Origin: an uncultured Ectothiorhodospiraceae bacterium
GTDB lineage: Bacteria; Pseudomonadota; Gammaproteobacteria; UBA9214
DNA length: 64,000 nucleotides
Direction of reading: 5' to 3'
Assembly: GCA_947258615.1 (NCBI GenBank)
Contig: CAMYIX010000043.1
Coordinates: 72,973 to 136,972 of the forward strand
Under the pieces are notes generated by a model, which saw only the letters and a program-made list of their open reading frames with translations, searched no databases and was not told where the DNA came from. Made by a program: the position numbers and the translations under genes. Each line of letters begins with the position of its first letter. Position 1 is the stretch's first letter. Of this stretch, positions 3,965-38,896 are shown piece after piece.

Positions 3965-4792
3965 ATGAATTTTGATTTTCCGACCCTGCTGGTTGCCGCG
4001 ACCCTGTTCACCGGTCTTGCCTGGGCAATCGATGCCCTTGCCTGGGCCCCGCGACGGCGTGCCCGGGCGGGGGAGTTGTTGCGCGCAGGCCAGGCCTCTG
4101 ACTCCGAGCAGGTGGCAACGGCACTCAAGGAACCGACCTGGATCGAGTACTGCAAGTCGTTCTTCCCGGTCATCCTGGCGGTGCTGCTGCTGCGTTCCTT
4201 CCTGGTCGAACCGTTTCGCATCCCCTCCGGCTCCATGATGCCGACGCTGCTGGTGGGTGATTTCATCCTGGTCAACAAGTATGCCTACGGGATTCGCCTG
4301 CCGGTGCTGGACACCAAGATCATCGACATCGGCGCGCCGCAACGCGGCGACGTGGTGGTATTCAGGTATCCCAAGGACCCCTCGGTGGATTACATCAAGC
4401 GCGTGGTGGGCGTTCCCGGGGACCGTATCGGTTACTATGACAAGGTGCTCTACATCAACGGCGCAGCGGCCGAGCAGGTACCCGCCGGTGTCTATGTCGG
4501 CAAGGGCTCCGGTGTCTCCATGTCGGGTGCCAGCGAGCGCAGGGAAACCCTGGGCGCCATCGAGCACAATATCCTGGTGATGACGCGCACACCCGGGATG
4601 GAGGGTGAGTACGTGGTGCGTGACGGCGAATATTTTGTGATGGGTGACAATCGTGATAATAGTAACGACAGCCGTTACTGGGGGCCGGTGCCGGAAGCGA
4701 ACCTGGTAGGCAAGGCATTTCGGGTCTGGATGAACTGGGATTCCGCCAACAGGGGCGTTGAACTGGACCGGGTCGGTATGAAAATTCAATAG
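3965..4792 (+). CDS. lepB: signal peptidase I
   Basis: N-terminal TM segment, SGSMMPTL catalytic Ser box, KRVVGVPGD Lys box and GDNRDNSNDSRYWG box. Directly downstream of lepA. Confidence 0.92.
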   Translation: MNFDFPTLLVAATLFTGLAWAIDALAWAPRRRARAGELLRAGQASDSEQVATALKEPTWIEYCKSFFPVILAVLLLRSFLVEPFRIPSGSMMPTLLVGDFILVNKYAYGIRLPVLDTKIIDIGAPQRGDVVVFRYPKDPSVDYIKRVVGVPGDRIGYYDKVLYINGAAAEQVPAGVYVGKGSGVSMSGASERRETLGAIEHNILVMTRTPGMEGEYVVRDGEYFVMGDNRDNSNDSRYWGPVPEANLVGKAFRVWMNWDSANRGVELDRVGMKIQ

Positions 4793-4814
4793 GACAGCTG
4801 CAAGGGAGAACGGT

Positions 4815-5183
4815 ATGCATTCGCTACATCGACAGAAGGGGATGACAGGGGCCGGTTGGCTGATCGTGCTGGCGTTGATCGGTTTTTTTGCCATGTTGGT
4901 GCTGAAGATGCTGCCGTCCTACATGGAGTACTACAAGATCGTCTCCACGCTTGAGTCGCTGGAGGAGGAATCGGGCCTCGAGACCCCGCATGACATCCGC
5001 CGCCTGATCGAGCGCCGCTTTGATATCAGCTATGTGAACACCATCCAGCCCCGGGATGTCAAAATCCAGAGCGCGGGCCCGAACTACCGGGTGCGGGCCA
5101 AGTATGAATCCCGCAAACACCTGTTTCACAATATCTACGTGGTCATGACCTTTGACAAGCAGGTCACGGTAAAATCTCGTTGA
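4815..5183 (+). CDS. DUF4845-family small membrane protein
   Basis: 122 aa, N-terminal TM helix (GWLIVLALIGFFAMLVLKMLPSYMEYY). Conserved position between lepB and rnc in pseudomonad-type genomes. Its stop overlaps the rnc start (TTGA). Confidence 0.6.
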   Translation: MHSLHRQKGMTGAGWLIVLALIGFFAMLVLKMLPSYMEYYKIVSTLESLEEESGLETPHDIRRLIERRFDISYVNTIQPRDVKIQSAGPNYRVRAKYESRKHLFHNIYVVMTFDKQVTVKSR

Positions 5184-12555: not shown

Positions 12556-13161
12556 ATGAAAACACTACGCATTCCCATGGCCATGCTGTTGATGCTGTTT
12601 GCCGCGGCCTGTGTCACGATCAATGTTTATTTTCCCGCCGAGGCCGCCGAGAAGGCTGCCGACCGCATCATCAAGGACGTCTACGGTGAACAGCCGGCAG
12701 CGCCCCGGGAGCCGGCGGCCGAACCGCAGTCGCGTTTTCAACCGCAGGTATTGCCGGCCCGTTATCGCTATGGCCTGCTTGACTGGCTGGTATCGCCGGC
12801 ACACGCCGAGGCCGATCTCTCGGTCAATACGCCGGCCATCAGCCAGCTCAAGGCGGACATGGAACAGCGCCACCGGCAGCTGGCCCCGCACTACACCTCC
12901 GGTGCTGTCGGGATGACCCATGACGGCGAGATCGCCATACGCGACCAGACCCTGCTTGCGTTGAAGGACAGGAATACGGTGAAGACTCTGGTGGCGAAAG
13001 AGAACCGCGACCGCGGTGCCCTGTATGCGGAGATCGCACGTGCCAACGGACACCCCGAATGGGAGGGTGAGATACGCCAGACCTTTGCCCGGCGCTGGGT
13101 GGACAATGCCCCCGGTGGCTGGTGGTACAGCAGCGCCAGCGGCAGCTGGAAACAGAAATAG
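12556..13161 (+). CDS. fused YnbE-like lipoprotein / YdbL (DUF1318) protein
   Basis: N-terminus MKTLRIPMAMLLMLFAAACVTINVYFPAEAAEKAADRIIKDV resembles the YnbE lipobox and beta-strand. C-terminus (ENRDRGALYAEIARANGHPEWEGEIRQTFARRWVDNAPGGWWY) matches the YdbL/DUF1318 signature. Confidence 0.6.
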   Translation: MKTLRIPMAMLLMLFAAACVTINVYFPAEAAEKAADRIIKDVYGEQPAAPREPAAEPQSRFQPQVLPARYRYGLLDWLVSPAHAEADLSVNTPAISQLKADMEQRHRQLAPHYTSGAVGMTHDGEIAIRDQTLLALKDRNTVKTLVAKENRDRGALYAEIARANGHPEWEGEIRQTFARRWVDNAPGGWWYSSASGSWKQK

Positions 13162-13214
13162 ACGTTCACAAAACCAACTTCCCAATATCACCGCAGAAAA
13201 TTGATTTAAAATAA

Positions 13215-13341
13215 TCTCACCGCAGAGGCGCAGAGGACGCAAAGTAAAGATTTCATCCAGGAAATAAGCTATTCGTCTATAGCTACATGATAAAAAATGT
13301 ATTGTTATGGGCTAATTGTTTTCTCTGCGTGCTCTGTGCCT
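13215..13341. repeat. imperfect palindromic intergenic repeat, copy A (GC-rich ~30-bp arms, AT-rich ~70-bp loop)
   Basis: Left arm CTCACCGCAGAGGCGCAGAGGACGCAAAG (13215-13243) is the near reverse complement of right arm TTCTCTGCGTGCTCTGTGCCTCTGCGGTGAG (13311-13341). An extra half-site ATCACCGCAGAAAA lies at 13186-13199. Confidence 0.8.
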
Positions 13342-13372
13342 CTGCGGTGAGTAATTATATAAATCAGCCCTT

Positions 13373-14149
13373 ATGAATATTTTTGTGTTTGATATCGAGA
13401 CGGTGCCCGATGTGGAGGGCGGCCGGCGCCTCTACCAGCTGGATGAGCTGGATGACAAGAATGTCGCCCGGGTGATGTTCCACAAACGCTCCCAGGAGTC
13501 CGGCGGTTCGGAGTTTCTGCGCCACCACCTGCACCGGATCGTTGCTATCTCGGTGGTGCTGCGCACGGCCGAACGCTTCAAGGTCTGGTCGCTGGGCGAG
13601 CCGGATGCCGATGAGGCGGAGCTGATCCAGCGGTTTTTTGACGGGGTTGAGCGCTTCTCGCCCAAGCTGGTCTCATGGAACGGGTCCGGTTTCGATCTCC
13701 CGGTCATCCACTATCGCAGCCTGCTGCACGGCATCAGCGCACCGCGCTACTGGGATACCGGCAAGGACGATCGTGATTTCAAGTGGAACAACTACCTGAG
13801 CCGCTTTCATGAGCGTCATACCGACCTGATGGACGTCCTCTCCGGCTACCAGCCCAGGGCGGCCGCACGACTGGACGAGATCGCAACCCTGCTGGGTTTC
13901 CCCGGCAAGATGGGGATGAGCGGTGACAAGGTCTGGGACAGTTACCAGGCCGGGGATATCGAGGGCATCCGCGACTACTGCGAGACCGACGTGCTCAACA
14001 CCTACCTGGTCTACCTGCGCTTCGAGTTGATACGCGGCCACCTGGGGCCGGATCAATACGAACAGGCCTGCCAGCAGATCCGCGACGGGTTGCAGCAAAC
14101 CGACAAGCCGCACCTGACGGAGTTCCTGCAGGCATGGCAGGCGGGCTAG
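13373..14149 (+). CDS. predicted 3'-5' exonuclease of the PolB-like / RNase H-fold family (COG3298-like)
   Basis: Starts MNIFVFDIETVPD (DEDD-type Exo I motif) with later acidic motifs (YCETDV). 258 aa, consistent with stand-alone PolB-exonuclease-like proteins. Confidence 0.6.
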   Translation: MNIFVFDIETVPDVEGGRRLYQLDELDDKNVARVMFHKRSQESGGSEFLRHHLHRIVAISVVLRTAERFKVWSLGEPDADEAELIQRFFDGVERFSPKLVSWNGSGFDLPVIHYRSLLHGISAPRYWDTGKDDRDFKWNNYLSRFHERHTDLMDVLSGYQPRAAARLDEIATLLGFPGKMGMSGDKVWDSYQAGDIEGIRDYCETDVLNTYLVYLRFELIRGHLGPDQYEQACQQIRDGLQQTDKPHLTEFLQAWQAG

Positions 14150-14172
14150 ATTCGTTCGTGCGGAATGAATAA

Positions 14173-14310
14173 CTCACCGCGGAGACGCGGAGAGCGCAGA
14201 GTGACTAAATAATAAAAAGCTGTGAAAATAACTACTCACTGAATCATAGAGACAAAGTTTTTATCTATTATTTGATTACTTTCTCGGCGTTCTCCGCGCC
14301 TCTGCGGTGA
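14173..14310. repeat. imperfect palindromic intergenic repeat, copy B
   Basis: Left arm CTCACCGCGGAGACGCGGAGAGCGCAGAG (14173-14201) pairs with right arm TTCTCGGCGTTCTCCGCGCCTCTGCGGTGA (14281-14310). The AT-rich 79-bp loop is unrelated to the copy A loop. Confidence 0.8.
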
Positions 14311-14342
14311 ATGTTCTATAACCAGAAAATGGCTCCACTCGA

Positions 14343-15671
14343 ATGAGCAAGCGTACCCGCAGACAACGCCTGCCTGCTCCCTGTGAGCGAATCACGATCG
14401 AGTCGTTGGGCCATGACGGTCGCGGTGTGGCGCACCGGGACGGCAAGGCGGTTTTCATCGACGCTGCCTTGCCGGGTGAGGAAGTCGCCTTCGAGTACCT
14501 GGCGACCCACCGCAAGTATGACGAAGGCCGCGTCACCGGTGTGCTTCGGCCATCGCGCGATCGGGTCGAGCCGAAGTGCCCGCATTTCGGTGTGTGCGGT
14601 GGTTGCAGCCTGCAGCATATGGCGGCGGCTGCGCAGATCGGCTCGAAGCAGCAGGTGCTGCTGGATAACCTGCAGCATATCGGCAAGGTGGAACCGGCGA
14701 TGCTGCTGGACCCGCTGACGGGTCCGGTGTGGGGCTATCGCACCAAGGCGCGCCTCGGTGTCAGGCATGTCATCAAGAAGGGCAGGGTGCTGGTCGGTTT
14801 CCGGGAAAAGCGCAGTGCCTTGCTCGCGGACCTCAAGGGTTGCGAGGTGATGCACCCGTCGGTGGGCCGGCGTATCGATGAACTCGCACAGTTGATCGAT
14901 GGGCTTGATGCCAGGGGGCGCATTCCCCAGATCGAGGTGGCGGTGGCGGAAGCGGTCACGGCCCTGGTATTCCGTAACCTCGATCCACTCGGGGCGGCGG
15001 ACCTGGAGAGCCTGAGGCAGTTTGGCGTCCGCATGGGTATCCACGTCTACCTGCAGCCGTCCGGGCCGGACAGCGTGCAGCTGTTGTGGCCGGATGAATC
15101 GACCCTGGTCTATCGCCTGCCGGGACAGGCCATCGAGATCGAGTTCAGACCGACCGACTTCACCCAGATCAACCCGGCCATCAACGTACAGATTGCCTCA
15201 CGGGTTCTGGAACTCCTGGACCTTGCTGATACGCACCGTGTACTGGAACTGTTTTGCGGACTGGGCAATTTCACCCTGCCGGTGGCACGCCATGCCGGTG
15301 AGGTGACGGGTGTCGAGGGGGATGCCGGCCTGGTCAGCCGGGCACGCGAGAATGCGCTGCGCAATGGCCTGCACAATGTCAGCTTTCATGCGGCCGACCT
15401 GGCCGAGCGCGTGACCGAGGCACCCTGGGCAGGGGTGGCCTACGATCGGGTGCTACTCGACCCGCCGCGCAGTGGTGCGGCGGCCGTCATGGACCTGCTG
15501 GGCAATATCAGGCCCGAACGCATGGTCTATATTTCCTGCCACCCGGGTTCACTGGCCCGCGATGCCGACCGGCTGGTCAACGAGTTCGGCTATCGGCTAC
15601 AGGCAACTGGCGTGATGGACATGTTCCCGCATACCGCCCACGTGGAGTCGATCGCCCTGTTTGAACGCTGA
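14343..15671 (+). CDS. rlmD: 23S rRNA (uracil1939-C5)-methyltransferase RlmD (RumA)
   Basis: N-terminal TRAM domain, Fe-S cluster cysteines CPHFGVCGGCSLQH, and a C-terminal SAM methyltransferase domain with the catalytic Cys; 442 aa. Confidence 0.85.
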   Translation: MSKRTRRQRLPAPCERITIESLGHDGRGVAHRDGKAVFIDAALPGEEVAFEYLATHRKYDEGRVTGVLRPSRDRVEPKCPHFGVCGGCSLQHMAAAAQIGSKQQVLLDNLQHIGKVEPAMLLDPLTGPVWGYRTKARLGVRHVIKKGRVLVGFREKRSALLADLKGCEVMHPSVGRRIDELAQLIDGLDARGRIPQIEVAVAEAVTALVFRNLDPLGAADLESLRQFGVRMGIHVYLQPSGPDSVQLLWPDESTLVYRLPGQAIEIEFRPTDFTQINPAINVQIASRVLELLDLADTHRVLELFCGLGNFTLPVARHAGEVTGVEGDAGLVSRARENALRNGLHNVSFHAADLAERVTEAPWAGVAYDRVLLDPPRSGAAAVMDLLGNIRPERMVYISCHPGSLARDADRLVNEFGYRLQATGVMDMFPHTAHVESIALFER

Positions 15672-15711
15672 CGGCGATTATTCACCATGGAGACGCGGGG
15701 AATCAAAAGAT

Positions 15712-15935
15712 ATCACCGCAAAGGCGCAAAGGGCGCAAAAAAGTTAAATAACATAAAATCACTCACCGCAGAGACGCGGAGAACGCAGAGCACATATTAT
15801 TGAAAAAACACAGCTACCAGTAATTACAAATATGGGTCACTCACCGGGTTTGGGTTTAACACTATTTTCTCCGCGTCCTCTGCGTCTCCGCGGTTAATAA
15901 TTATCTTTCTTTGCGCCCTTTGCGCCTTTGCGGTG
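15712..15935. repeat. nested pair of palindromic intergenic repeats, copy C (inner copy 15762-15895 inside outer copy 15712-15935)
   Basis: Outer arms ATCACCGCAAAGGCGCAAAGGGCGCAAA / TTTGCGCCCTTTGCGCCTTTGCGGTGA. Inner arms ACTCACCGCAGAGACGCGGAGAACGCAGAG / TTTTCTCCGCGTCCTCTGCGTCTCCGCGGTT. Extra degenerate half-sites at 15681-15701 and 15837-15848. Confidence 0.8.
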
Positions 15936-15953
15936 AAGGTTGTTGTTCAAGCC

Positions 15954-16561
15954 CTACTGCTTGTACCAGCGGGAGGTGAGGGCGCGGTAGACCCGGTTGG
16001 GGTACCAGCTTTTGCCGACGCTGCCGTTGTAGCGCGCCAGCGCCCTGAACAGATTGCCCTTTTCCCTCTTTCGGTAGTAGCTCAGGATGGTGCAGCCAAG
16101 GCGGATGTTGGTGCCGATGTGAAACAGGTTGTCTTCCGGATGGCCGATCTCATCCAGCCAGAACGGCATGATCTGCATCAGGCCCTGGGCCCCGGCGGTG
16201 GATATCGCAAAGCGATCGTAGTTGCTCTCTACCTCGATCAGCGCCAGGACCAGTTCCGGTTCGAGCCCGGCGCGGCGTGCCTCGTAGTGCACGGTTTTAA
16301 GAATCTTCAGGCGTTCTTCCGGGTCTTCGACGCGTTTCTGCAAACGGCTCGACATATCCGTCAGCCAGACCTCGGCATCAAAGCGGTCACTGAAGCTATC
16401 GCTCGACTCGATGGCCTCGACCAGGATCTGCCTCAAGGTGTCATCCGGGCGCTCCCGGGTGGCCGCCGCGGCATCGAATGCGCTGGCAAAGGACAATATC
16501 CCCAGCCAGGCAGATAGCACGATTCCGATCGAGAAGGGTGGAATGGGCGCCATATTGTCCA
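15954..16561 (-). CDS. lytic murein transglycosylase domain protein (Slt/MltE-like)
   Basis: Contains ALIEVESNYDRFAISTAGAQGLMQIMP, the catalytic Glu-Ser and AQGLMQ signature of family-1 lytic transglycosylases. Signal-peptide-like N-terminus. Start set at MDNMAPIPP to avoid overlapping proS. Confidence 0.65.
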
Positions 16562-31060: not shown

Positions 31061-31287
31061 CTGAATGGCGGTTGTACGCAGTTGAAATGTGGCAGGACGA
31101 ACCGTCGCTGCGAGCACAATATATACAGTTATCAATATGGTCCCCCTACAACATATAGAACTCGTTGGTGTTATTCACGCAACTACTTGTTCTAAAAAAT
31201 AATTTAAGGTATAAGCTGTATGTGCTGCAGCAATTGAAAATAACCCTGTATGCATACGGCTGTTTTACATAGCGGGGAGTCGGGGAA

Positions 31288-32193
31288 TTGAACAGTAATG
31301 TTGATCTGCTGCAATATCGGGTGCGTCACCTCCAGGTGACCCGGGATGCTCCGTTGCGGGCGGTGTGGGTGGAGTTCAAATATGATGGCCGTCCATGTTT
31401 TACGAGGGAGTTGCTGGAAGACGTGTGGGCCGTGCAGCGCACCATACGGCAGGCGGTGATATCAGATTATCAGCAGGGACAAACTGACAGGTTGTTGTTC
31501 CAGGTACTTGCCTCGACCGATAGTCGGGCATTCAGTCTGGGCGGTGATTTGACCTATTTTATCGAGCTGATCGAGGCCGGTGATCGTGAGGGTCTGCGCA
31601 ACTATGCCAAAACCTGTATCGAGATCCAGTACATAACCGCGACACATTACGATACCCCGTTCACTACAATCGCACTGGTTGAAGGCGAGGCGCTGGGTGG
31701 TGGATTCGAAGCCGCTTTGTCAGCCAATCTGCTGATTGCCGAGCCGCAGGCGAGATTCGGATTTCCAGAAATTTCATTCGGTATGTTTCCGGGTATGGGT
31801 GCCCTGTCGCTGCTCGCACGTCGGGTGACGTTGGCTACAGCGCGCAAGCTGATTATGGATCAGCGTATTTATACGGCCGAGGAGCTTCACGAATTGGGTG
31901 TTGTGGATATCCTGGCTTCGAAGGGAAAAGGCCGTGAAGCCACCGCTGAATACATGAGGCGGAATATCGGCCTGGTATCCGGCCTTCATGGCTTCCAGGC
32001 AGCAGTTGACCGTGTTTATCCTGTTAAATACGACGAACTCACCGATGTCATTGACTTATGGGTTGAGGCGGCGATGCACCTGAATGACAGAAATAAACGC
32101 CTGATGGAATATTTTGCACGCGCCCAGGTAAGCCGCATTACCACCTCTGAGGATGACTCCGCTTCAGGTTCCTACCGGCTTGAACTGAATTGA
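31288..32193 (+). CDS. rpfF: DSF synthase RpfF (crotonase-fold enoyl-ACP dehydratase/thioesterase)
   Basis: Strong motif-level match to Xanthomonas RpfF: FSLGGDLTYF, ALVEGEALGGGFEAALS (catalytic Glu) and FGFPEISFGMFPGMGA (second catalytic Glu), C-terminal WVEAAMHL. TTG start assumed. Confidence 0.8.
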   Translation: MNSNVDLLQYRVRHLQVTRDAPLRAVWVEFKYDGRPCFTRELLEDVWAVQRTIRQAVISDYQQGQTDRLLFQVLASTDSRAFSLGGDLTYFIELIEAGDREGLRNYAKTCIEIQYITATHYDTPFTTIALVEGEALGGGFEAALSANLLIAEPQARFGFPEISFGMFPGMGALSLLARRVTLATARKLIMDQRIYTAEELHELGVVDILASKGKGREATAEYMRRNIGLVSGLHGFQAAVDRVYPVKYDELTDVIDLWVEAAMHLNDRNKRLMEYFARAQVSRITTSEDDSASGSYRLELN

Positions 32194-32203
32194 CTATTTA
32201 GGT

Positions 32204-34762
32204 TCAGTAATTCTGGGCCTGTGCGCGAAATACATCGGCTTTATCGTGCAGGACCTGGATGGAATCATCCAGGGTACGACGAATAGTGCGCAGTTGAATG
32301 ATGCCATCGGCAGTAAAGTGATCTTTGCTGATGTTCTGATTATCAAGGCACAACTGTGCAAGCCTGGTCAGGCCCAGATACAGGGCGCATCCTTTCAACG
32401 CATGCGCAGCATCCTGGAAGGCTGGCCAGTCATGTTTGGCAACAGAAGTCTCGAGGTGCTGAAAGTCCCTGTTTGCATCGGTCTCGAAATTGCGCATCAT
32501 CTCCAGAATGAAGTCAGGACTTTCGCCTGACAACTGGTTCAATTCCCCGAATTGGTTCTCATCGAGGATTGGGAATTCCTCCGCATTCAATACGTCTGTA
32601 GCGGGTTTGTCCGTGCTCTCCTCGGGCAGGAGTTTGTTCGGCCTGCTGAGTGTTGCAAGAGTGTTTTGCAAGGTGGTCAGTGACACGGGCTTGGTCAGGA
32701 ATAAGTCTATGCCTGCTTTTCTGCACGTTTTCCGGCACTCCTCAGTTGCGTCGGCTGTCAGTATGGCAAAACTCACGCTATGTGTGCCCCCATGTGCGAG
32801 GCAATAGGCCTGGTAGGTCTCAATTCCCCCAAGGCCAGGCATGTTTTTGTCGAGAAATACGACATCATAACCAGACTGCTCCAGTGCCTCGAGTGCTTCT
32901 TCGCCACCTGATACTGTGGTGCAGCCATGCCCCATTTTCTCCAGCATGCGTTTAATGACGATCCGGTTTGTTGCGTTGTCATCTGCGACAAGAACATTCA
33001 AGGTTCTTGACTGACTCTGCCTACTGGACTGGCGACTGGCTATGTGCAGGACATCATCCTCTGTACTATGTCTTGAGTAGCACGCATGCAATGTGTTGAA
33101 GAATATTTGCTTGTCCGCGTTCGAGGCGACTTTGAAAAGCCACTCATGCTCCAGTTTAGTGATCGCGGGCGGGTATTTTTCCGAGTTCAACAGTACAACG
33201 GGAATGCTAGAGGCGGGTTCGTCCAGACTCATATGAGTTAACAGATCACATAGTTCGATATCATAAGGCATGCCATCGATTACAAGGGCATCATAGATTA
33301 AATCCACATCATCACTTCTCAGATCGGCTATAGCCTGCTCGACGGATTTGACAGTCTTAAATGGTATCTTCCAGGCGTGCATAAGCTTGATGGTTTCGCT
33401 GCCGTCGTCTATACCGGGATTCAGATAGAGCACGACGCATTCGCTGGCCCATGATTGATTATTTTCACCGGTAGCTTTGGCGATATCGAATGGTATGTCG
33501 AACCAGAAGGTGGTCCCGACATTGGGAGTACTTTGGATGCCGATTTCCCCTCCCATCAGTTCAATAAGGTTCTTGCAAATTGTAGTGCCGAGACCTGTCC
33601 CTCCAAAGGTTCTCGATACACTGCTGTTGGCCTGCGTGAATGGATCGAAGATGGCATCAATTTGACCAGGATCGATTCCAATACCTGTGTCAATAACCTC
33701 GAATCTCAACAGTGCACGTTGAGCATCAAGCTCTAGAGGGTGAACTTGTACCGATACAAATCCCTGATCTGTGAATTTAATCGCATTGCCTACCAGATTA
33801 ATAATGATCTGCCGTAATTTGTGCGGGTCACCCTGCAACAGGTAGGGTGTCATAGGGTCAAGACTCTCATTTAAATTTATCTGCTTGCTGTCTACCTGCG
33901 TTTTGAATATTCGCAAGGTGGTACTGATCAACGCATAGAGATCGAATTTGATGTTTTCAATCGTCAGTTGTCCGGCCTCGATCTTCGACAGGTCAAGGAT
34001 TTCATTTATCTGCCTGGCCAGTGTGCTGCCGGATGCATGGATGATATCCACACATTCCTTGTCATCAGGTTCAAGTGGCCTTAGTCTTAGCAACTCTGTC
34101 ATGCCAAGTATCCCATTAAGCGGCGTGCGGATCTCGTGCGACATTCTTGACAGAAAGTCGCTCTTGGCGCGGTTGGCATCATTCGCGCGCTGGCGTGCTT
34201 CATTGAGGCGACGGATTAGTAATGCAGAGTAGGCAGGAATAACAAGAAGTGTAATGGCCAGTCCTATTGCGAGTCCCCTATGTGTATCCCAGTATGGTGT
34301 AGAATAAACAACAGCACCAAAACCTATAAGTGATGTCGCGCCAGAGAGATATAGATATTTTTCACCATACCTGAAACCGTTTCCTAGAATTACCCAAAGA
34401 AATACTCCGTACCACGGCGCACCCATGTGACCTGTTAAATACATTCCGTAACTTAATGCGCCAGTATCACCGCATATGCCTATGATGCGTCTAACTATAG
34501 AAGGCTGAGTCCACACCAGAGTGGAAATAAAAAGTAGAATTGCAAAGGCAAGGAATGAAAGAATGAACCATGTTCCTTTTCCCCAAATTTGGATATCATT
34601 TTGTGTGGCTGGCCCGTTGATTATTAGGTAGCACAAGAACGTCAAAGGGATAAAGATACGTAACACACCCTGTTCTTGGTCAGGGGTCCCGTGCCAACCA
34701 ATTATTTCTAATAGCTTCTTTGCTATTGGGCCGATCAGGCCATTATTTATGTCGGTAGGCAT
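32204..34762 (-). CDS. rpfC: RpfC-like hybrid sensor histidine kinase (5-TM sensory input, HisKA, HATPase, pseudo-receiver, receiver, C-terminal HPt)
   Basis: N-terminal polytopic membrane region, H-box SHEIRTPLNGILGMTELL, ATPase G-boxes, REC (VLVADDNATNRIV...DVVFLDKNMPGLGG), and C-terminal Hpt (HALKGCALYLG). Convergent with rpfF. Confidence 0.75.
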   Translation of the reverse strand: MPTDINNGLIGPIAKKLLEIIGWHGTPDQEQGVLRIFIPLTFLCYLIINGPATQNDIQIWGKGTWFILSFLAFAILLFISTLVWTQPSIVRRIIGICGDTGALSYGMYLTGHMGAPWYGVFLWVILGNGFRYGEKYLYLSGATSLIGFGAVVYSTPYWDTHRGLAIGLAITLLVIPAYSALLIRRLNEARQRANDANRAKSDFLSRMSHEIRTPLNGILGMTELLRLRPLEPDDKECVDIIHASGSTLARQINEILDLSKIEAGQLTIENIKFDLYALISTTLRIFKTQVDSKQINLNESLDPMTPYLLQGDPHKLRQIIINLVGNAIKFTDQGFVSVQVHPLELDAQRALLRFEVIDTGIGIDPGQIDAIFDPFTQANSSVSRTFGGTGLGTTICKNLIELMGGEIGIQSTPNVGTTFWFDIPFDIAKATGENNQSWASECVVLYLNPGIDDGSETIKLMHAWKIPFKTVKSVEQAIADLRSDDVDLIYDALVIDGMPYDIELCDLLTHMSLDEPASSIPVVLLNSEKYPPAITKLEHEWLFKVASNADKQIFFNTLHACYSRHSTEDDVLHIASRQSSRQSQSRTLNVLVADDNATNRIVIKRMLEKMGHGCTTVSGGEEALEALEQSGYDVVFLDKNMPGLGGIETYQAYCLAHGGTHSVSFAILTADATEECRKTCRKAGIDLFLTKPVSLTTLQNTLATLSRPNKLLPEESTDKPATDVLNAEEFPILDENQFGELNQLSGESPDFILEMMRNFETDANRDFQHLETSVAKHDWPAFQDAAHALKGCALYLGLTRLAQLCLDNQNISKDHFTADGIIQLRTIRRTLDDSIQVLHDKADVFRAQAQNY

Positions 34763-34859
34763 TTATACTGTATATTCTTGATGATGCGAGCGTGCTTCGG
34801 TAGTTAACTTTATATATCGACAATATTTATCTAATTCTTTAATTTCTATTGGGTTATAG

Positions 34860-35102
34860 ATGTCCCTAATGGTTAAATCTGCTGTTTTTGAAGTAATTGC
34901 TGCCCAAACAAATCGCGAGACAGAAACGATCTCTTTGGAGTCAGAACTTAAAGATCTTGGCATTGATTCTCTAGGCGCGATTACGGTCATATATGAACTT
35001 GAGGAACGGTTCGATATTGAAATACCGAACGAAGTTATTGAATCTATTAGTAATGTTCGGGATATCGTTAATCATCTCGAACTGACGCTCGGAAATCGCT
35101 AG
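34860..35102 (+). CDS. acyl carrier protein (dedicated, island-encoded)
   Basis: 80 aa with the phosphopantetheine attachment motif LGIDSLGAITV (Ser in DSL); acidic helix II. Confidence 0.7.
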   Translation: MSLMVKSAVFEVIAAQTNRETETISLESELKDLGIDSLGAITVIYELEERFDIEIPNEVIESISNVRDIVNHLELTLGNR

Positions 35103-35107
35103 GAACA

Positions 35108-36322
35108 ATGCCAAATAAGGTGGTTATTACCGGACTTGGTTGTGTCAGCGGTCTCGGTATGAATGTCCCGGATTTTTGGGATGGTATGTGTGAAGGGCGA
35201 TCTGGTATCTCACCACTAGCGGGAATTGATGAGGGTGTGAAAATAAGGCTGGGAGCCACGGTCAATGGATACCAGCCGGAAAGCCACTTCAGCACGAGCG
35301 ATCTGCCATTGCTAGACCGATTTTCGCAATTCGCGATTTTGGCGGCACGTGAAGCGATACACGATGCCGGTCTGGAGGCCTCAGGGGATAATCTGGCTGA
35401 GGCTGCTGCGATTATCGGGACAGGCTGTGGAGGCAAGCAAACAGACGAGGAAACCTATTCGCGCTTATATAAAGAAGCACACTCGCGTGCCCACCCGATG
35501 ACTATCCCAAAAGGTATGCCAAGTGCCGCAGCCAGCATGGTCAGTATGCACCTGGGCATCAAGGGGCCGGTTTTCTCAGTTGCCAGTGCCTGTGCGTCAG
35601 CTGCCCATGCAGTATGTCAGGGTCGGATGATGGTCCTTTCCGGGCTGGTAGATATCGCGGTTGTCGGTGGTGCAGATACACCCTTCACTTATGGTCTATT
35701 GAAGGCCTGGGAGGCGTTGAGAGTGATATCAAATGATACATGTCGGCCGTTTTCCAGGGACCGTACTGGCATGGTACTCGGTGAAGGCGCCGGTATGGTT
35801 GTGATTGAGTCTCAGAAGCATGCTGTCCGACGTGGTGCGCGTATCTATGCAGAACTATCAGGGTGTGGGTTATCTTCTGATGCTGGACATATTACCCGCC
35901 CGGATGTTGGCGGTATATCCTGTGCAATAAACAGAGCAATCAAAGATGCCGGACTTTTGCCTGAATCAGTAGGCTATATAAACGCGCATGGGACAGGGAC
36001 GATGGCGAATGATATCGCAGAAACGCAGGCATTGAGGAGGGTGTTTGGGGCCCACGCTGACAAATTGGCAGTTACCTCGACCAAGTCAATGCATGGTCAT
36101 GCGCTCGGGGCATCCAGTGCGCTTGAGTTGGTTGCCACAGTGCGGGCTATTCATGGCAGAACAGTTCCACCAACAGCAAATTTCACCGAGCCTGGAGAAG
36201 GCTGCGATCTGGATTATGTGCCAAACATGGCGAGAGAGCAGGAAATTTCTGCTGCACTTTCAAATTCTTTTGCTTTTGGAGGGCTTAATGCCGTGCTCGC
36301 CTTGCAGGCATGGCATGGCTGA
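35108..36322 (+). CDS. beta-ketoacyl-ACP synthase (KAS I/II, FabF/FabB-like)
   Basis: Active-site Cys in ASACASAAHAV, His-His motifs (NAHGTGT, MHGHALGASS), GGLNAVL C-terminus; 404 aa. Confidence 0.8.
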   Translation: MPNKVVITGLGCVSGLGMNVPDFWDGMCEGRSGISPLAGIDEGVKIRLGATVNGYQPESHFSTSDLPLLDRFSQFAILAAREAIHDAGLEASGDNLAEAAAIIGTGCGGKQTDEETYSRLYKEAHSRAHPMTIPKGMPSAAASMVSMHLGIKGPVFSVASACASAAHAVCQGRMMVLSGLVDIAVVGGADTPFTYGLLKAWEALRVISNDTCRPFSRDRTGMVLGEGAGMVVIESQKHAVRRGARIYAELSGCGLSSDAGHITRPDVGGISCAINRAIKDAGLLPESVGYINAHGTGTMANDIAETQALRRVFGAHADKLAVTSTKSMHGHALGASSALELVATVRAIHGRTVPPTANFTEPGEGCDLDYVPNMAREQEISAALSNSFAFGGLNAVLALQAWHG

Positions 36323-36326
36323 ATGG

Positions 36327-37397
36327 TTAATCTCGGGCCCTGAATAGATAGTGGCTGTTGCCATAGAAATTACCATCCATCGGCGCGAATACTGTCTTGC
36401 ACAGTGAAAAGTAGTTATTCCAGTGCGCAATGGCGCTAGAGTCGAAGATATGTTCATACAGATATGGCACTCTCTCCCAGAAGCGTTGGTGCCATTCATC
36501 AAGCGTGCGCCAGTAATTAAGACCATTGACAAACCAATGGCCAATCAGATCAAGGTGCTCGGTATGACGGGCGAGTTCATCATGAGGCCATGCCCGCCCA
36601 CCGGGAAAATACAAGCCGATACGCGTCTTTTCAGGGTCCAGGAATTGTGGAATAACTCTGCGAGATGTGATGAAGTGATGAAATGTTTTTCCATGTGGTG
36701 TTAGCATGTCTGAGATTTTCAAAAGGGCGGCGCTCATGTTCCGTACCTGTTCAAATACTGCTACAGATATGACAAGGTTAAAACTATTTTGTTCTGATGA
36801 ATTCAAAGGCAACTGATCAAACTTTCCTTCAATCAGCGTAAAGCGCCCGCTACCAAGTGGATCATCTGGATCATTCATTCGCTTTCTTAGGTAGTTAACC
36901 TGGACTCTGCTGGGCGTTATACCGACAATCTCCAGCTTCGGGAATCTCTTGAGAAGGTAGCTCTCGAGCGAACCAAATCCGCAGCCTATATTGAAGATTC
37001 GTTCATGTCCTTCTATCTGTGCGCGCCTGGCAATAAGGTCGAACTTTGCATGTTGCGCTTCTTCGAGTGTGGCGTCAGATTTTCGTATGCTGACGGGGCT
37101 TTCGCCGTAGTAGGCCATTGAATAGGCGTGGTAGCGAGTATCTAAAAAGCTCTTGAAAAAATTCAGATCTTCATCGTAGTGGTGCTCCATCAGCGAATCA
37201 GTGTCTTCCATGATGGGCCCTTCACTGGTAGAGATGCCGAGTTCGGGTAATGAGACCGGATTGTCTGTGTAGCGCTGGTACTCTCTTGTGAAGAACCGCG
37301 TTAGTCGGTCTTCGTAGAGGCGAAGTTCGTTGCTTGAGGGCCCGTGTATGCCTTTCAGTGCGAGTTTTTCCCTGATCAACTCGATGTTTATATCCAT
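36327..37397 (-). CDS. cyclopropane-fatty-acyl-phospholipid synthase-like SAM-dependent methyltransferase
   Basis: SAM-binding motif IFNIGCGFGSLESYL and overall CFA-synthase/mycolic-acid methyltransferase family architecture with an N-terminal extension; 356 aa. Confidence 0.65.
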   Translation of the reverse strand: MDINIELIREKLALKGIHGPSSNELRLYEDRLTRFFTREYQRYTDNPVSLPELGISTSEGPIMEDTDSLMEHHYDEDLNFFKSFLDTRYHAYSMAYYGESPVSIRKSDATLEEAQHAKFDLIARRAQIEGHERIFNIGCGFGSLESYLLKRFPKLEIVGITPSRVQVNYLRKRMNDPDDPLGSGRFTLIEGKFDQLPLNSSEQNSFNLVISVAVFEQVRNMSAALLKISDMLTPHGKTFHHFITSRRVIPQFLDPEKTRIGLYFPGGRAWPHDELARHTEHLDLIGHWFVNGLNYWRTLDEWHQRFWERVPYLYEHIFDSSAIAHWNNYFSLCKTVFAPMDGNFYGNSHYLFRARD

Positions 37398-37514
37398 CTC
37401 GATGGTAGGCAGGTGGCGCTGTTTTGGTCTTTGAATCCCTGCGACTCAGGATTCCTGAGAATGGAACGCGAACTTAATTTAGGTTTGTAATCCTAACACA
37501 CTGATGTGTTGTCA

Positions 37515-38573
37515 TCATTGGCTATGGCTTAGTTTTATGTCCGAGAGCATGTCCTGTATCTTCATCACGGTATCGAGTTGGGACTTGAATGCATCGTAAC
37601 ACTCCGGATCAAAATGCAGGCCGCTTTGTTTTTCCATATAATCAATGGCTTCCTGCATCGACCAGGCATGTTTGTAGGGGCGTACCGAGACGAGGGCGTC
37701 ATAGACATCTGCGACTGCAACGATCCTTGCCGGCAAGGGAATTGCTTCGCCCTTCAGCCCTTGTGGATATCCTGAGCCGTTAAATTTTTCATGGTGACTG
37801 AGCGCGATCACTGCGCCCATTTGCAAAAACTTGGAAGGGCTGTCCTTGAGTATTTCGTGACCGATCAGCGTGTGTCGCTTCATTATCTCGAATTCTTCTG
37901 TGTTTAGTTTTCCCGGCTTCAGCAATATGTCGTCCCTGATCCCGATTTTCCCTATGTCGTGCATCGGTGCCGCCATCTCAATGACATCAGCTTCCTCGGA
38001 TGTGAACCCCATGTGTTCAGCTATAACCCGGGCAAACTTGGCCATCCGTACCACGTGGTTACCGGTTTCCTCGTCCCTGTATTCACCAGCCTTCGCGAGG
38101 CGGAGCAAGGTCTCCCTTTCGCGTAGACGAATCTCGCTGGTGGCTTCTGCAACCCGCCGTTCCAACCAGTGCGACCTGTCCTGGATGATCTTGTATTGCT
38201 GGTGCTGGGTCAGCAGGTTCCGGCAGCGGGCCCGGCACTCGTTATGGTCAACCGGCTTCATCAGGAAGTCGGTGGCACCTGCTTCAAGCGCCTGGTAACG
38301 GACATTTCTGTCTTCTACAGAGGTCACCATGATGATCGGGACGTGTTCGCAGGCCGGGTTTGCCCTGAACTTGAGGATGAACTCTATGCCATTCATTTCA
38401 GGCATTTTGTAATCGGTGAGTATCAGGTCCACCTGATTGCGTATTGACCAGTCCAGCGCCTCCATTGGGTTTGCAAATGACTGTACATCCGGCTCGCCTT
38501 CAATGGCGTTCACCAGGTGGACCAGTATTTGCCGACTGGTTAATTGGTCATCTACGACTACGATCGTGGCCAT
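37515..38573 (-). CDS. rpfG: RpfG-like response regulator: receiver + HD-GYP c-di-GMP phosphodiesterase
   Basis: REC domain (IVVVDDQ...DLILTDYKMPEMNG), HD motif (PMHDIGKIGI), and HHEKFNGSGYP HD-GYP signature. Start at MATIVVVDD. Confidence 0.8.
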   Translation of the reverse strand: MATIVVVDDQLTSRQILVHLVNAIEGEPDVQSFANPMEALDWSIRNQVDLILTDYKMPEMNGIEFILKFRANPACEHVPIIMVTSVEDRNVRYQALEAGATDFLMKPVDHNECRARCRNLLTQHQQYKIIQDRSHWLERRVAEATSEIRLRERETLLRLAKAGEYRDEETGNHVVRMAKFARVIAEHMGFTSEEADVIEMAAPMHDIGKIGIRDDILLKPGKLNTEEFEIMKRHTLIGHEILKDSPSKFLQMGAVIALSHHEKFNGSGYPQGLKGEAIPLPARIVAVADVYDALVSVRPYKHAWSMQEAIDYMEKQSGLHFDPECYDAFKSQLDTVMKIQDMLSDIKLSHSQ

Positions 38574-38896
38574 ATGGCTTCTCTGCGATATCTTGGATAT
38601 TTGAACTAAAACCACCGGAATCCACGCCTTCCGGACGCTATGGTCTCCGGCTTCTATGTAACTTGATTCACATAACTAACTGATATACATAGCCAAACAT
38701 GACTCTACATATGCACGAGTTTATATCGGCAGATGCTTGAACAAATTGAGACTTATTGACCCAGGCCGCCGGGCGGCGCCGGTTACGCCCGGCTTTTTCC
38801 GCAGGGGTAGGCCAGTGTCAGTGCTGGTGCCGATTACAGGCGTGATTGCCTGCCGGTGCGATGTGGTTAAAATACCGCACACTTTGCTAACAGGGA

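What the first reader, a model, noticed from the sequence alone, without database searches (positions are those of the whole stretch)
13186..15935. Family of ~130-bp imperfect palindromic intergenic repeats with conserved GC-rich arms and unrelated AT-rich loops
Three intergenic sites (13215-13341, 14173-14310, 15712-15935) share arms built on the core TCACCGC-RGAG-RCGC-RGAG and its reverse complement. The 70-110 bp loops are AT-rich (unusual in this ~62% GC genome) and mutually unrelated. Additional isolated half-sites occur next to each copy. The structure resembles ERIC/Correia/MITE-like elements. It does not match integron attC cores (no GTTRRRY) or REP consensus sequences known to me.
Basis: seen in the sequence. 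Interest (0 to 1): 0.6.

Follow-up and report, generated by a model that had tools for sequence, protein, structure and literature searches.

The report
Hairpin relics of nuclease gene cassettes
The three AT-rich intergenic palindromes are gene-less members of a very widespread, apparently undescribed family of inserted DNA elements whose complete copies carry a small nuclease gene of unknown function (GxxExxY) between the same conserved inverted repeats.

Summary
The window holds four complete inverted-repeat elements, one nested inside another, plus two arm remnants, in three consecutive intergenic spacers (10 arm matches against 0.29 expected).

Each 29-nt arm reads (T)TCACC followed by three CRC-NRAG units. 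The loops are 78-81 nt, 23-35% GC and mutually unrelated.

The same arm occurs in at least 120 loci of species-representative genomes from roughly 15 bacterial phyla. It also occurs in viral contigs and in cultured isolates.

When the spacer is about 400 nt it encodes a roughly 125-aa GxxExxY protein (TIGR04256, PF13366 PD-(D/E)XK nuclease). Conversely, about 60 of 76 GxxExxY genes chosen without reference to the arms are bracketed by such arms. One short element is visibly a deletion derivative of a neighbouring full cassette.

More distant syntenic relatives have empty spacers of 12-58 nt, so these are insertions. There are no target-site duplications. Arms co-vary (G-C to A-T). One loop is inverted and two are replaced between relatives.

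Best reading: ORF-less, MITE/REPIN-like derivatives of nuclease cassettes, with recombinationally active arms. How they move is not shown. I found no prior description.

The parts
13186..13200 (+). Remnant (TATCACCGCAGAAAA) of an outer left arm in spacer 1
   Evidence: Orthologous to a full outer left arm in L122/L123 spacer 1. The matching outer right arm is present in L122 and lost in the window.
13216..13244 (+). Element 1, left arm: CTCACCGCAGAGGCGCAGAGGACGCAAAG
13245..13322 (.). Element 1, loop: 78 nt, GC 0.28, no ORF. No homologue in the relatives although the arms and flanks are orthologous.
13323..13351 (-). Element 1, right arm, 26 of 29 complementary to the left arm
14173..14201 (+). 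Element 2, left arm: CTCACCGCGGAGACGCGGAGAGCGCAGAG
14202..14282 (.). Element 2, loop: 81 nt, GC 0.23. Same orientation in L121 (80% identity); inverted in L122/L123 (59/79 identical, z 9).
14283..14311 (-). Element 2, right arm, 24 of 29 complementary
15681..15709 (+). Degenerate outermost left arm (TTCACCATGGAGACGCGGGGAATCAAAAG) with no right partner in the window
   Evidence: Corresponds to the outermost left arm of L123 spacer 3.
15712..15740 (+). Element 3 outer, left arm (CGCAAAG variant)
15762..15790 (+). Element 3 inner, left arm; nested in the loop of the outer element
15791..15868 (.). Element 3 inner, loop: 78 nt, GC 0.35
15869..15897 (-). Element 3 inner, right arm, 23 of 29 complementary
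15909..15937 (-). Element 3 outer, right arm, 27 of 29 complementary, same CGCAAAG variant as its partner

Best explanation
The elements are ORF-less (non-autonomous) members of a family of inverted-repeat-bounded cassettes found in many bacterial phyla. A full-length member is: a 29-nt arm ((T)TCACC plus three CRC-NRAG units), a roughly 125-aa GxxExxY PD-(D/E)XK nuclease gene, then the inverted arm.

Shown:
- The arms are conserved across phyla with a sharp outer boundary.
- GxxExxY is the only recurrent cargo between the arms.
- Most GxxExxY genes are bracketed by such arms.
- At least one short form is demonstrably an internal deletion of a full cassette.
- The window's copies are insertions into very short operon spacers. 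They arose in the ancestor of this clade and were later nested, eroded, inverted and loop-swapped.
- The two arms of one element co-vary so that they can still pair.

Inferred:
- The nuclease, acting in trans, cuts at or near the arm hairpin or cruciform. Copies spread, or exchange their loops and cargo, by break repair that uses the shared arms as homology. This would explain why there is no target-site duplication, why elements nest, and why loops are replaced or inverted.
- In the window the copies are old residents. Their present effect is most likely as long RNA hairpins inside the DUF1318-exonuclease-rlmD transcripts and at the converging rlmD and SLT gene ends, acting as RNase III or processing sites or as 3'-end stabilisers, as Correia and REP elements do.
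For: - Arm enrichment in the window.
- At least 120 loci in species-representative genomes of many phyla, mostly as convergent pairs.
- Logo of 150 arms with a sharp boundary.
- Cargo identified as TIGR04256 (E 7e-43) and PF13366. It is the only recurrent cargo.
- Reverse test that ignored the arms: about 60 of 76 GxxExxY loci from metagenomes carry the arms.
- Full cassette next to its deletion derivative in L100.
- The same design in cultured Bacteroides, Sphingomonas and Gemmatirosa.
- Filled versus empty fabD-fabG spacer in two Sphingomonas species.
- Empty orthologous spacers of 12-58 nt in L330 and L332.
- Layered variants in close relatives.
- Covariation over 101 elements: 90.6% of cells paired against 86.3% in shuffles; 244 against 111 double-sided changes; 0 of 500 shuffles as high. 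The CRC pair is G-C in 72, A-U in 27 and other in 1-2. Left and right arms agree on CGC versus CAC in 45 of 46.
- Loop inversion and loop replacement between relatives.
- Same-strand arms stacked 25-80 nt apart: 11 cases among 260 arms.
- The catalytic-type residues D64 and E74-x-K76 are invariant, and the predicted fold is PD-(D/E)XK-like.
- GxxExxY is on the same strand as its upstream neighbour in 28 of 35 and its downstream neighbour in 23 of 29.
Against: - There is no GxxExxY gene in the 64-kb window, and the rest of this genome could not be read. A resident trans-acting nuclease is therefore unproven.
- No step of the mobility mechanism has been observed.
- There are no target-site duplications, so standard transposition is unlikely, but nothing positive replaces it.
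- Protein similarity does not track arm class (0.606 against 0.604, p 0.23). This gives no support for co-evolution of nuclease and arm.
- There is no excess of G.U over A.C mismatches on the sense strand (66 against 70). An RNA-level stem is therefore not specifically supported.
- Covariation could partly reflect subfamily ancestry or template-switch homogenisation of quasi-palindromes rather than selection.
- The window copies are shared with relatives whose RlmD is 87% identical. They may be immobile relics.
Confidence: 0.7

Rival explanations
1. They are host-retained RNA structural elements. The 29-bp stems are kept by selection because they act in the operon mRNAs as RNase III processing sites, 3'-end protection or insulation between cistrons. 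The link to the nuclease cassette is only their historical origin.
For: - Very stable hairpins on both strands.
- They sit inside an operon-like gene run and between the converging rlmD and SLT genes.
- The arms are 89-93% identical between relatives, against 75-80% for the loops and 59-78% for the outside flanks.
- Compensatory G-C to A-U changes.
- GxxExxY cassettes are on the same strand as their neighbours.
- All five relatives of the clade keep arms in all three spacers.
Against: - No sense-strand wobble bias.
- Inter-unit spacer columns are unpaired in 32-47% of elements.
- Arms erode to half-sites in some lineages.
- More distant relatives do without them.
- No Rfam family matches.
- This reading is compatible with the best explanation rather than an alternative to it.
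Confidence: 0.3
2. They are classical MITEs, mobilised in trans by a DDE-type insertion sequence elsewhere in the genome that has the same terminal inverted repeats.
For: Terminal inverted repeats, small size, no ORF, multiple copies, intergenic position.
Against: - No target-site duplication at any boundary or length in 140 elements.
- Among roughly 240 loci selected by the arm, and 80 selected by the gene, the only recurrent ORF between arms is GxxExxY. No transposase was seen.
- The arms are conserved across phyla, which is unusual for the ends of one IS family.
Confidence: 0.06
3. They are REP/BIME or REPIN elements serviced by a RAYT (IS200/IS605-like) transposase.
For: The layout of inverted doublets that form hairpins, with a cognate gene flanked by the same repeats, is strikingly like REPIN and RAYT.
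Against: - No GTAG anywhere in 13151-15970.
- The single arms are tandem heptads, not palindromes.
- No RAYT-like gene in the window. The only tblastn hit (E 0.05) falls on the non-coding strand of other genes (the query sequence was recalled from memory).
- The flanked gene is a PD-(D/E)XK nuclease.
Confidence: 0.03
4. They are operator-like binding sites for a DNA-binding protein (a regulator or nucleoid protein), or intrinsic terminators.
For: Palindromic layout and repeated heptads in each arm. Site 3 lies between the converging rlmD and SLT genes.
Against: - Covariation changes the sequence while keeping the complementarity.
- The same arms occur in roughly 15 phyla and in viral contigs.
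- No T-run follows the stems, and the terminator scan found none at these sites.
- Loops of 78-81 nt are far too long for intrinsic terminators.
Confidence: 0.04

Closest known systems
REPINs and their RAYT transposases (REP doublets forming hairpins; Bertels & Rainey 2011, from my own knowledge)
   Same: Two short conserved repeats in inverted orientation around a variable spacer. They are intergenic and multi-copy, show no target-site duplication, and the cognate enzyme gene is itself flanked by the same repeats. Gene-less copies far outnumber gene-carrying ones.
   Different: - Each arm is a tandem triple heptad, not a palindromic REP with GTAG.
- The flanked gene is a 125-aa PD-(D/E)XK nuclease, not an HUH Y1 transposase.
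- The arm sequence is conserved across phyla, whereas REPs are lineage-specific.
Correia (NEMIS) elements of Neisseria and ERIC elements of enterobacteria (MITE-like; from my own knowledge)
   Same: Imperfect palindromes of roughly 100-160 bp, inserted between genes and co-transcribed into long hairpins. Correia hairpins are cut by RNase III and alter mRNA stability, which is the likely local effect here.
   Different: - No sequence similarity.
- No TA or other target-site duplication.
- Loops are not conserved between copies.
- A gene-carrying parent form exists.
23S rRNA intervening sequences (IVS), some of which carry a small ORF (Leptospira, Coxiella S23p; PMC4990558)
   Same: A small selfish ORF, or none, enclosed in a long stem whose arms are the conserved part. 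The interior is AT-rich and the distribution is sporadic. The stem is an RNase III substrate.
   Different: - These sit in mRNA spacers, not in rRNA helices.
- The cargo is GxxExxY, not the four-helix-bundle S23p family.
- I found no four-helix-bundle cargo between these arms.
- No RNA processing has been shown.
Free-standing or intron-borne PD-(D/E)XK homing endonucleases such as I-Ssp6803I (from my own knowledge)
   Same: A very small PD-(D/E)XK nuclease as the only gene of a selfish insert. Spread without target-site duplication by break repair is the mechanism I infer.
   Different: - Homing endonuclease genes are not bounded by conserved inverted repeats.
- They home to one allelic site, whereas these occupy many unrelated intergenic sites.
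- Nuclease activity has not been tested.
Integron gene cassettes with attC sites
   Same: A small promoter-less ORF framed by imperfect palindromes in which structure is conserved more than sequence, with same-strand orientation and exchangeable cargo.
   Different: - No R''/R' cores (RYYYAAC / GTTRRRY) at the arm ends.
- The arms bracket each ORF on both sides.
- No integrase or array context.
- Scattered in housekeeping operons.

Membership tests
Classical MITE | Terminal inverted repeats | tested here: met
   29-nt arms, 23-27 of 29 complementary in the window. Convergent pairs are the rule in the other loci.
Classical MITE | Target-site duplication flanking the element | tested here: not met
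   140 elements, boundary shifts of -1 to +3, k = 2-8: matches equal the permutation expectation.
Classical MITE | Parent insertion sequence that encodes a transposase and has the same ends | tested here: not met
   The only recurrent ORF between arms is GxxExxY (PF13366 nuclease). No transposase was seen.
Classical MITE | Short, non-coding, multi-copy; presence/absence between related genomes | tested here: met
   Four elements in the window. Several copies per MAG. Empty orthologous sites in L330 and L332. Families of short elements with homologous loops.
REP / BIME / REPIN-RAYT | REP unit is itself an imperfect palindrome with a conserved GTAG-type 5' end | tested here: not met
   No GTAG in 13151-15970. 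The arm is a tandem repeat of three heptads.
REP / BIME / REPIN-RAYT | Associated RAYT (Y1 HUH transposase) gene flanked by the repeats | tested here: not met
   No credible RAYT in the window (query recalled from memory). The repeats flank GxxExxY instead. The rest of the genome could not be examined.
ERIC / Correia / BOX | Sequence match to the family consensus | tested here: not met
   No match with up to 5 mismatches to ERIC primers, the Correia inverted repeat or the E. coli REP core. The only BOXA matches, at 5 mismatches, lie elsewhere in the window (consensus sequences from memory).
Integron attC | R'' (RYYYAAC) and R' (GTTRRRY) core sites at the ends of the palindrome; adjacent integrase or cassette array | tested here: not met
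   The few core-like heptamers in the region do not coincide with arm ends. No array structure.
Known RNA families (Rfam 15) | Covariance-model match above the gathering score | tested here: not met
   Only sub-threshold miRNA-hairpin look-alikes, at most 25 bits against gathering scores of 64-184.
GxxExxY (TIGR04256 / PF13366) inverted-repeat cassette family, defined here | Arm = (T)TCACC plus three CRC-NRAG units spaced 8-9 nt, as a convergent inverted pair | tested here: met
   All eight window arms fit. The design is shared with the arms that bracket GxxExxY genes.
GxxExxY (TIGR04256 / PF13366) inverted-repeat cassette family, defined here | GxxExxY ORF between the arms (autonomous form) | tested here: not met
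   The window loops are 78-81 nt with no ORF, and tblastn finds no remnant. They are therefore filed as ORF-less derivatives, like L100 4459-4586.
GxxExxY (TIGR04256 / PF13366) inverted-repeat cassette family, defined here | A GxxExxY gene elsewhere in the same genome | not testable with these tools

The most novel reading that the evidence does not exclude
Together with their TTCACC(CRCNRAG)3 inverted repeats they may form a previously unrecognised class of selfish element that spans many phyla. This class would spread and shuffle its cargo by nuclease-triggered, hairpin- or cruciform-directed break repair, not by any known transposase chemistry. The thousands of gene-less hairpins in operon spacers would be its non-autonomous progeny and landing pads. 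A more radical sub-reading: the nuclease cuts the RNA stem, so that the element is excised from host transcripts like an intervening sequence.
Probability: 0.3. Interest if true: 0.85.

Novelty: new variant of a known kind. Interest (0 to 1): 0.66.

Why it matters
- It ties a very large orphan protein family (TIGR04256 / PF13366, listed as 'function unknown' in the 2012 PD-(D/E)XK survey) to a concrete genetic context. These proteins are the cargo of inverted-repeat cassettes that insert into housekeeping operon spacers in many phyla. That gives a testable hypothesis for what the nuclease recognises.
- It defines a simple sequence signature for annotating a common class of intergenic hairpins. 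These hairpins also generate spurious ORF calls in MAGs.
- It offers a natural system for studying palindrome dynamics (nesting, loop inversion, loop exchange, erosion).
- It may reveal a mobility mechanism that does not use the known transposase families.
- For this particular genome the practical consequence is modest. Three operon spacers carry old inserted hairpins that probably shape mRNA processing.

Tried and rejected
- **Rfam scan of the region:** nothing above threshold.
- **Promoter and terminator scan:** no promoter-like site in the loops and no terminator at the stems.
- **Exact look-up of the window's RlmD:** not on record. I used homologues instead.
- **23S rRNA IVS with four-helix-bundle protein (my own first idea):** no such cargo found between arms. 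Kept only as an analogy.
- **Target-site duplications:** none.
- **Sense-strand G.U bias as evidence for an RNA stem:** none.
- **Co-variation of nuclease sequence with arm class:** none.
- **PDB sequence search:** no relative.
- **Foldseek against the PDB:** only weak PD-(D/E)XK-fold hits (Cas4 SSO0001, lambda exonuclease, splicing endonuclease), all with E > 0.3.
- **PHROGs:** no hit. **PADLOC:** only a weak Cas4 match.
- **RAYT search in the window:** spurious hit only.
- **ERIC, Correia, REP, BOX and attC consensus checks:** negative.
- **Literature:** no paper holds the arm strings. 'GxxExxY', PF13366 and TIGR04256 return only incidental mentions. The multicopy repeats of Geobacter metallireducens are different sequences.
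- **My interim conclusion that the element 2 loop had been replaced in L122/L123:** wrong. It is inverted (versus 83).
- **Assembly artefact:** rejected, because the same design occurs in complete genomes of cultured isolates.
Full report
**1.

The arm motif is strongly over-represented in the window: 10 matches with up to 3 mismatches, against 0.29 expected. Nine of them lie in 13217-15936. Reading the sequence, the repeat finder and exact extraction give four complete elements:
- Element 1: 13216-13351.
- Element 2: 14173-14311.
- At the third site, an inner element (15762-15897) sits inside the loop of an outer one (15712-15937). Both arms of the outer element carry the CGCAAAG variant.

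Two arm remnants lie at 13186-13200 and 15681-15709.

The arms are 29 nt and 23-27 of 29 complementary. The loops are 78, 81 and 78 nt at GC 0.28, 0.23 and 0.35, in a window of GC 0.594. The loops are mutually unrelated in both orientations (z <= 1.1). All elements fold as long hairpins on either strand (z -5.8 to -10.4).

They occupy three consecutive spacers of the gene run DUF1318 > 3'-5' exonuclease > rlmD, and the spacer between rlmD and the converging SLT gene. No other spacer in the 64 kb carries the motif.

**2. The arm is not specific to this genome.**

An exact scan of one genome per species with TCACCGCRRAGRCGCRRAGRRCGC should give about 0.5 chance hits by my own estimate. These come from Chloroflexota, Acidobacteriota, Planctomycetota, Beta- and Gammaproteobacteria, Desulfobacterota-type lineages, Nitrospinota, Bacteroidota, Armatimonadota, Verrucomicrobiota, Bacillota and several candidate phyla.

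In these loci the arms come overwhelmingly as convergent pairs 20-560 nt apart.

A logo of 150 arms shows a sharp outer edge. Nothing is conserved outside. Inward it reads T/C, then TCACC, then three units CRC-NRAG separated by 1 and 2 free bases, then an A-rich stretch.

**3. What the long versions carry.**

Every pair with a spacer of about 400-500 nt in the arm-selected genome loci encloses the same ORF, intact or frameshifted (L039, L100, L012, L063). The ORF is a roughly 125-aa GxxExxY protein: TIGR04256, E 7e-43, and PF13366 PDDEXK_3, E 2e-41. No other cargo recurs.

The reverse test ignored the arms. I took 80 metagenome loci chosen only by two GxxExxY peptide patterns. Of the 76 with enough flank, about 60 have the ORF bracketed, usually within 5-100 nt on either side, by inverted repeats of the same design. 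The unit variants are CGCAGAG, CACAGAG, CACGGAG, CGCCGAG, CACGAAG and CGCAAAG.

The same holds in cultured isolates:
- Bacteroides finegoldii: radA | cassette | FAD protein gene.
- Sphingomonas parapaucimobilis: fabD | cassette | fabG.
- Gemmatirosa kalamazoonensis.

So this is not a MAG artefact.

L100 shows how the short forms arise. A full cassette (4675-5118) lies next to a short element (4459-4586). The 70-nt loop of the short element is the first part of the same ORF region. Short elements also form families with homologous loops at different loci. This suggests that ORF-less copies can themselves multiply, although several of those matches may be duplicate or overlapping contigs.

**4. 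They are insertions.**

Relatives with 87% identical RlmD (L121-L125) carry arms in the same three spacers. The number of concentric layers differs from one to four. Those comparisons show that the window's half-site at 13186 is the stump of an outer layer.

More distant syntenic relatives have empty sites:
- L330 (RlmD 73% identical): spacers of 15, 58 and 35 nt.
- L332 (69%): 12 nt in spacer 1; a classical GTAG-type REP doublet in spacer 2; no arms in spacer 3.

Likewise the 436-nt cassette in the fabD-fabG spacer of S. parapaucimobilis is absent from S. paeninsulae.

There is no target-site duplication at any plausible boundary in 140 elements.

**5. Behaviour of the arms.**

Across 101 non-identical elements the two arms co-vary:
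- 90.6% of cells are paired, against 86.3% in shuffles.
- There are 244 double-sided changes, against 111 in shuffles.
- 0 of 500 shuffles reach the observed values, and the slid-partner controls score far lower.
- The CRC position is G-C in 72, A-U in 27 and other in 1-2.
- The free bases between units are unpaired in 32-47% of elements.

Left and right arms agree on CGC versus CAC in 45 of 46 cassettes, although the two classes are equally common.

Between relatives the arms are 89-93% identical, the loops 75-80% and the outside flanks 59-78%.

The loop of element 2 has the same orientation in L121 (z 32). In L122 and L123 it is inverted: 59/79 identical, z 9, against z 0.8 in the direct orientation.

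The loops of element 1 and of the inner element 3 have no counterpart in the relatives, although their arms and flanks are orthologous.

Same-strand arms stacked 25-80 nt apart are common: 11 cases among 260 arms. By my rough estimate that is about nine times the number expected by chance.

The arms therefore behave as recombinationally active, pairing-constrained ends. The DNA between them is exchangeable and invertible.

Caveat: the shuffle control ignores relatedness. Template-switch repair of quasi-palindromes can homogenise arms without any selection.

**6. The protein.**

D64 and E74-x-K76, which fit the PD-(D/E)XK catalytic pattern, are invariant.

The AlphaFold model (pLDDT 78) has a fold best matched, though weakly, by PD-(D/E)XK proteins: Cas4, lambda exonuclease and splicing endonuclease, all with E > 0.3.

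The 2012 survey of the superfamily lists PDDEXK_3 as 'Unknown' with 'multiple transfers' (PMC3424549).

The gene is rare on plasmids: 5 of 72,556 records.

It is preferentially on the same strand as its neighbours: upstream 28 of 35, p 5e-4; downstream 23 of 29, p 2e-3. This suggests expression by read-through from the host operon.

**7. How it most likely works.**

Shown: family membership, insertional origin, derivation of a short form from a full form, arm pairing, and loop inversion and replacement.

Inferred, for spread: the nuclease acts in trans on the arm hairpin or cruciform, or the host's own hairpin processing makes the break. Repair then uses the shared arms of another copy as homology. 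This spreads or swaps the interior without creating duplications, and it favours insertion into existing elements.

Inferred, for the window: the copies are old residents whose transcripts contain 29-bp stems. These are likely RNase III or processing sites or 3'-end stabilisers.

Evidence that weakens these inferences:
- No GxxExxY gene in the window.
- No correlation between nuclease sequence and arm class.
- No sense-strand wobble bias.

**8. Comparison with what is known.**

The closest analogue in logic is REPIN/RAYT. In local effect the closest are Correia and ERIC. In architecture the closest are the ORF-bearing 23S rRNA intervening sequences. In enzyme type the closest are the small PD-(D/E)XK homing endonucleases.

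Defining features of MITEs (target-site duplication, a transposase-encoding parent), of REPs (GTAG, RAYT), of attC (core sites) and of ERIC/Correia (consensus sequence) were tested and not met.

I found no paper that describes the arms or the association. The library does not hold most subscription-journal papers, so prior description cannot be excluded.

**9. Verdict.**

This is a real and well-defined feature. The instance in this window is a set of old, partly eroded copies. The family it belongs to appears to be an undescribed, very widespread nuclease-cassette system. Confidence in the family assignment is high. Confidence in the mobility mechanism is low.

Noticed in passing
L121 4982; L122 4711, 5935, 7347, 7735, 7815 (not in the window): A 48-nt sequence (ACGACTSCAGGGA...GGAGGTAGAG...TTRCCG) is inserted into arm units, apparently always between CGC and RRAG. 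In some elements it sits in both arms. In L121 spacer 3 only its first 15 nt remain, as a small perfect palindrome. It looks like a tiny element that parasitises the arms.
   Followed up: partly
L332 3380-3500; L122/L123 spacer 3 centre: In the more distant relative L332 the same exonuclease-rlmD spacer holds a classical GTAG-type REP doublet (GTAGGTTGGGCTGA...) instead of the arm element. A similar REP (GTAGGTCGGATTAGCGCAGCGTAATCCGAC) sits in the centre of the nested stack in L122/L123. Different palindromic families colonise the same spacers.
   Followed up: no
window 31200-38600: A lower-GC block (about 0.47-0.51 against 0.59) encodes an enoyl-CoA hydratase-like protein, a large hybrid sensor kinase, a beta-ketoacyl-ACP synthase, a cyclopropane-fatty-acid-synthase-like methyltransferase and a response regulator with an HD-GYP-type domain. 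It resembles an rpf/DSF-type signalling cluster, possibly acquired horizontally. Functions were judged by eye from the translations only.
   Followed up: no
window 13245-13322, 14202-14282, 15791-15868: The three mutually unrelated loops have almost the same length (78, 81, 78 nt), and the inverted orthologue in L123 is 82 nt. Across phyla, though, loop lengths range from 20 to 140 nt. Whether length is constrained in this lineage is unexplained.
   Followed up: partly
L001-L080 (listing): All 80 genome hits listed are MAGs from environmental samples. This may reflect scan order or the ecology of the carriers. Cultured carriers do exist (Bacteroides, Sphingomonas, Gemmatirosa).
   Followed up: partly
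L209-L328 (IMG/VR contigs): The arm pattern is frequent in contigs classed as viral, with several copies per contig in some (for example L236 and L227). I did not check whether these are true phage genomes, prophages or host fragments.
   Followed up: no
L052 3549-3920: One long loop contains a different repeat-like sequence (translated ...GGPMCPPARSRADTQVCPYK...). It looks like another multi-copy palindromic element nested between the arms.
   Followed up: no
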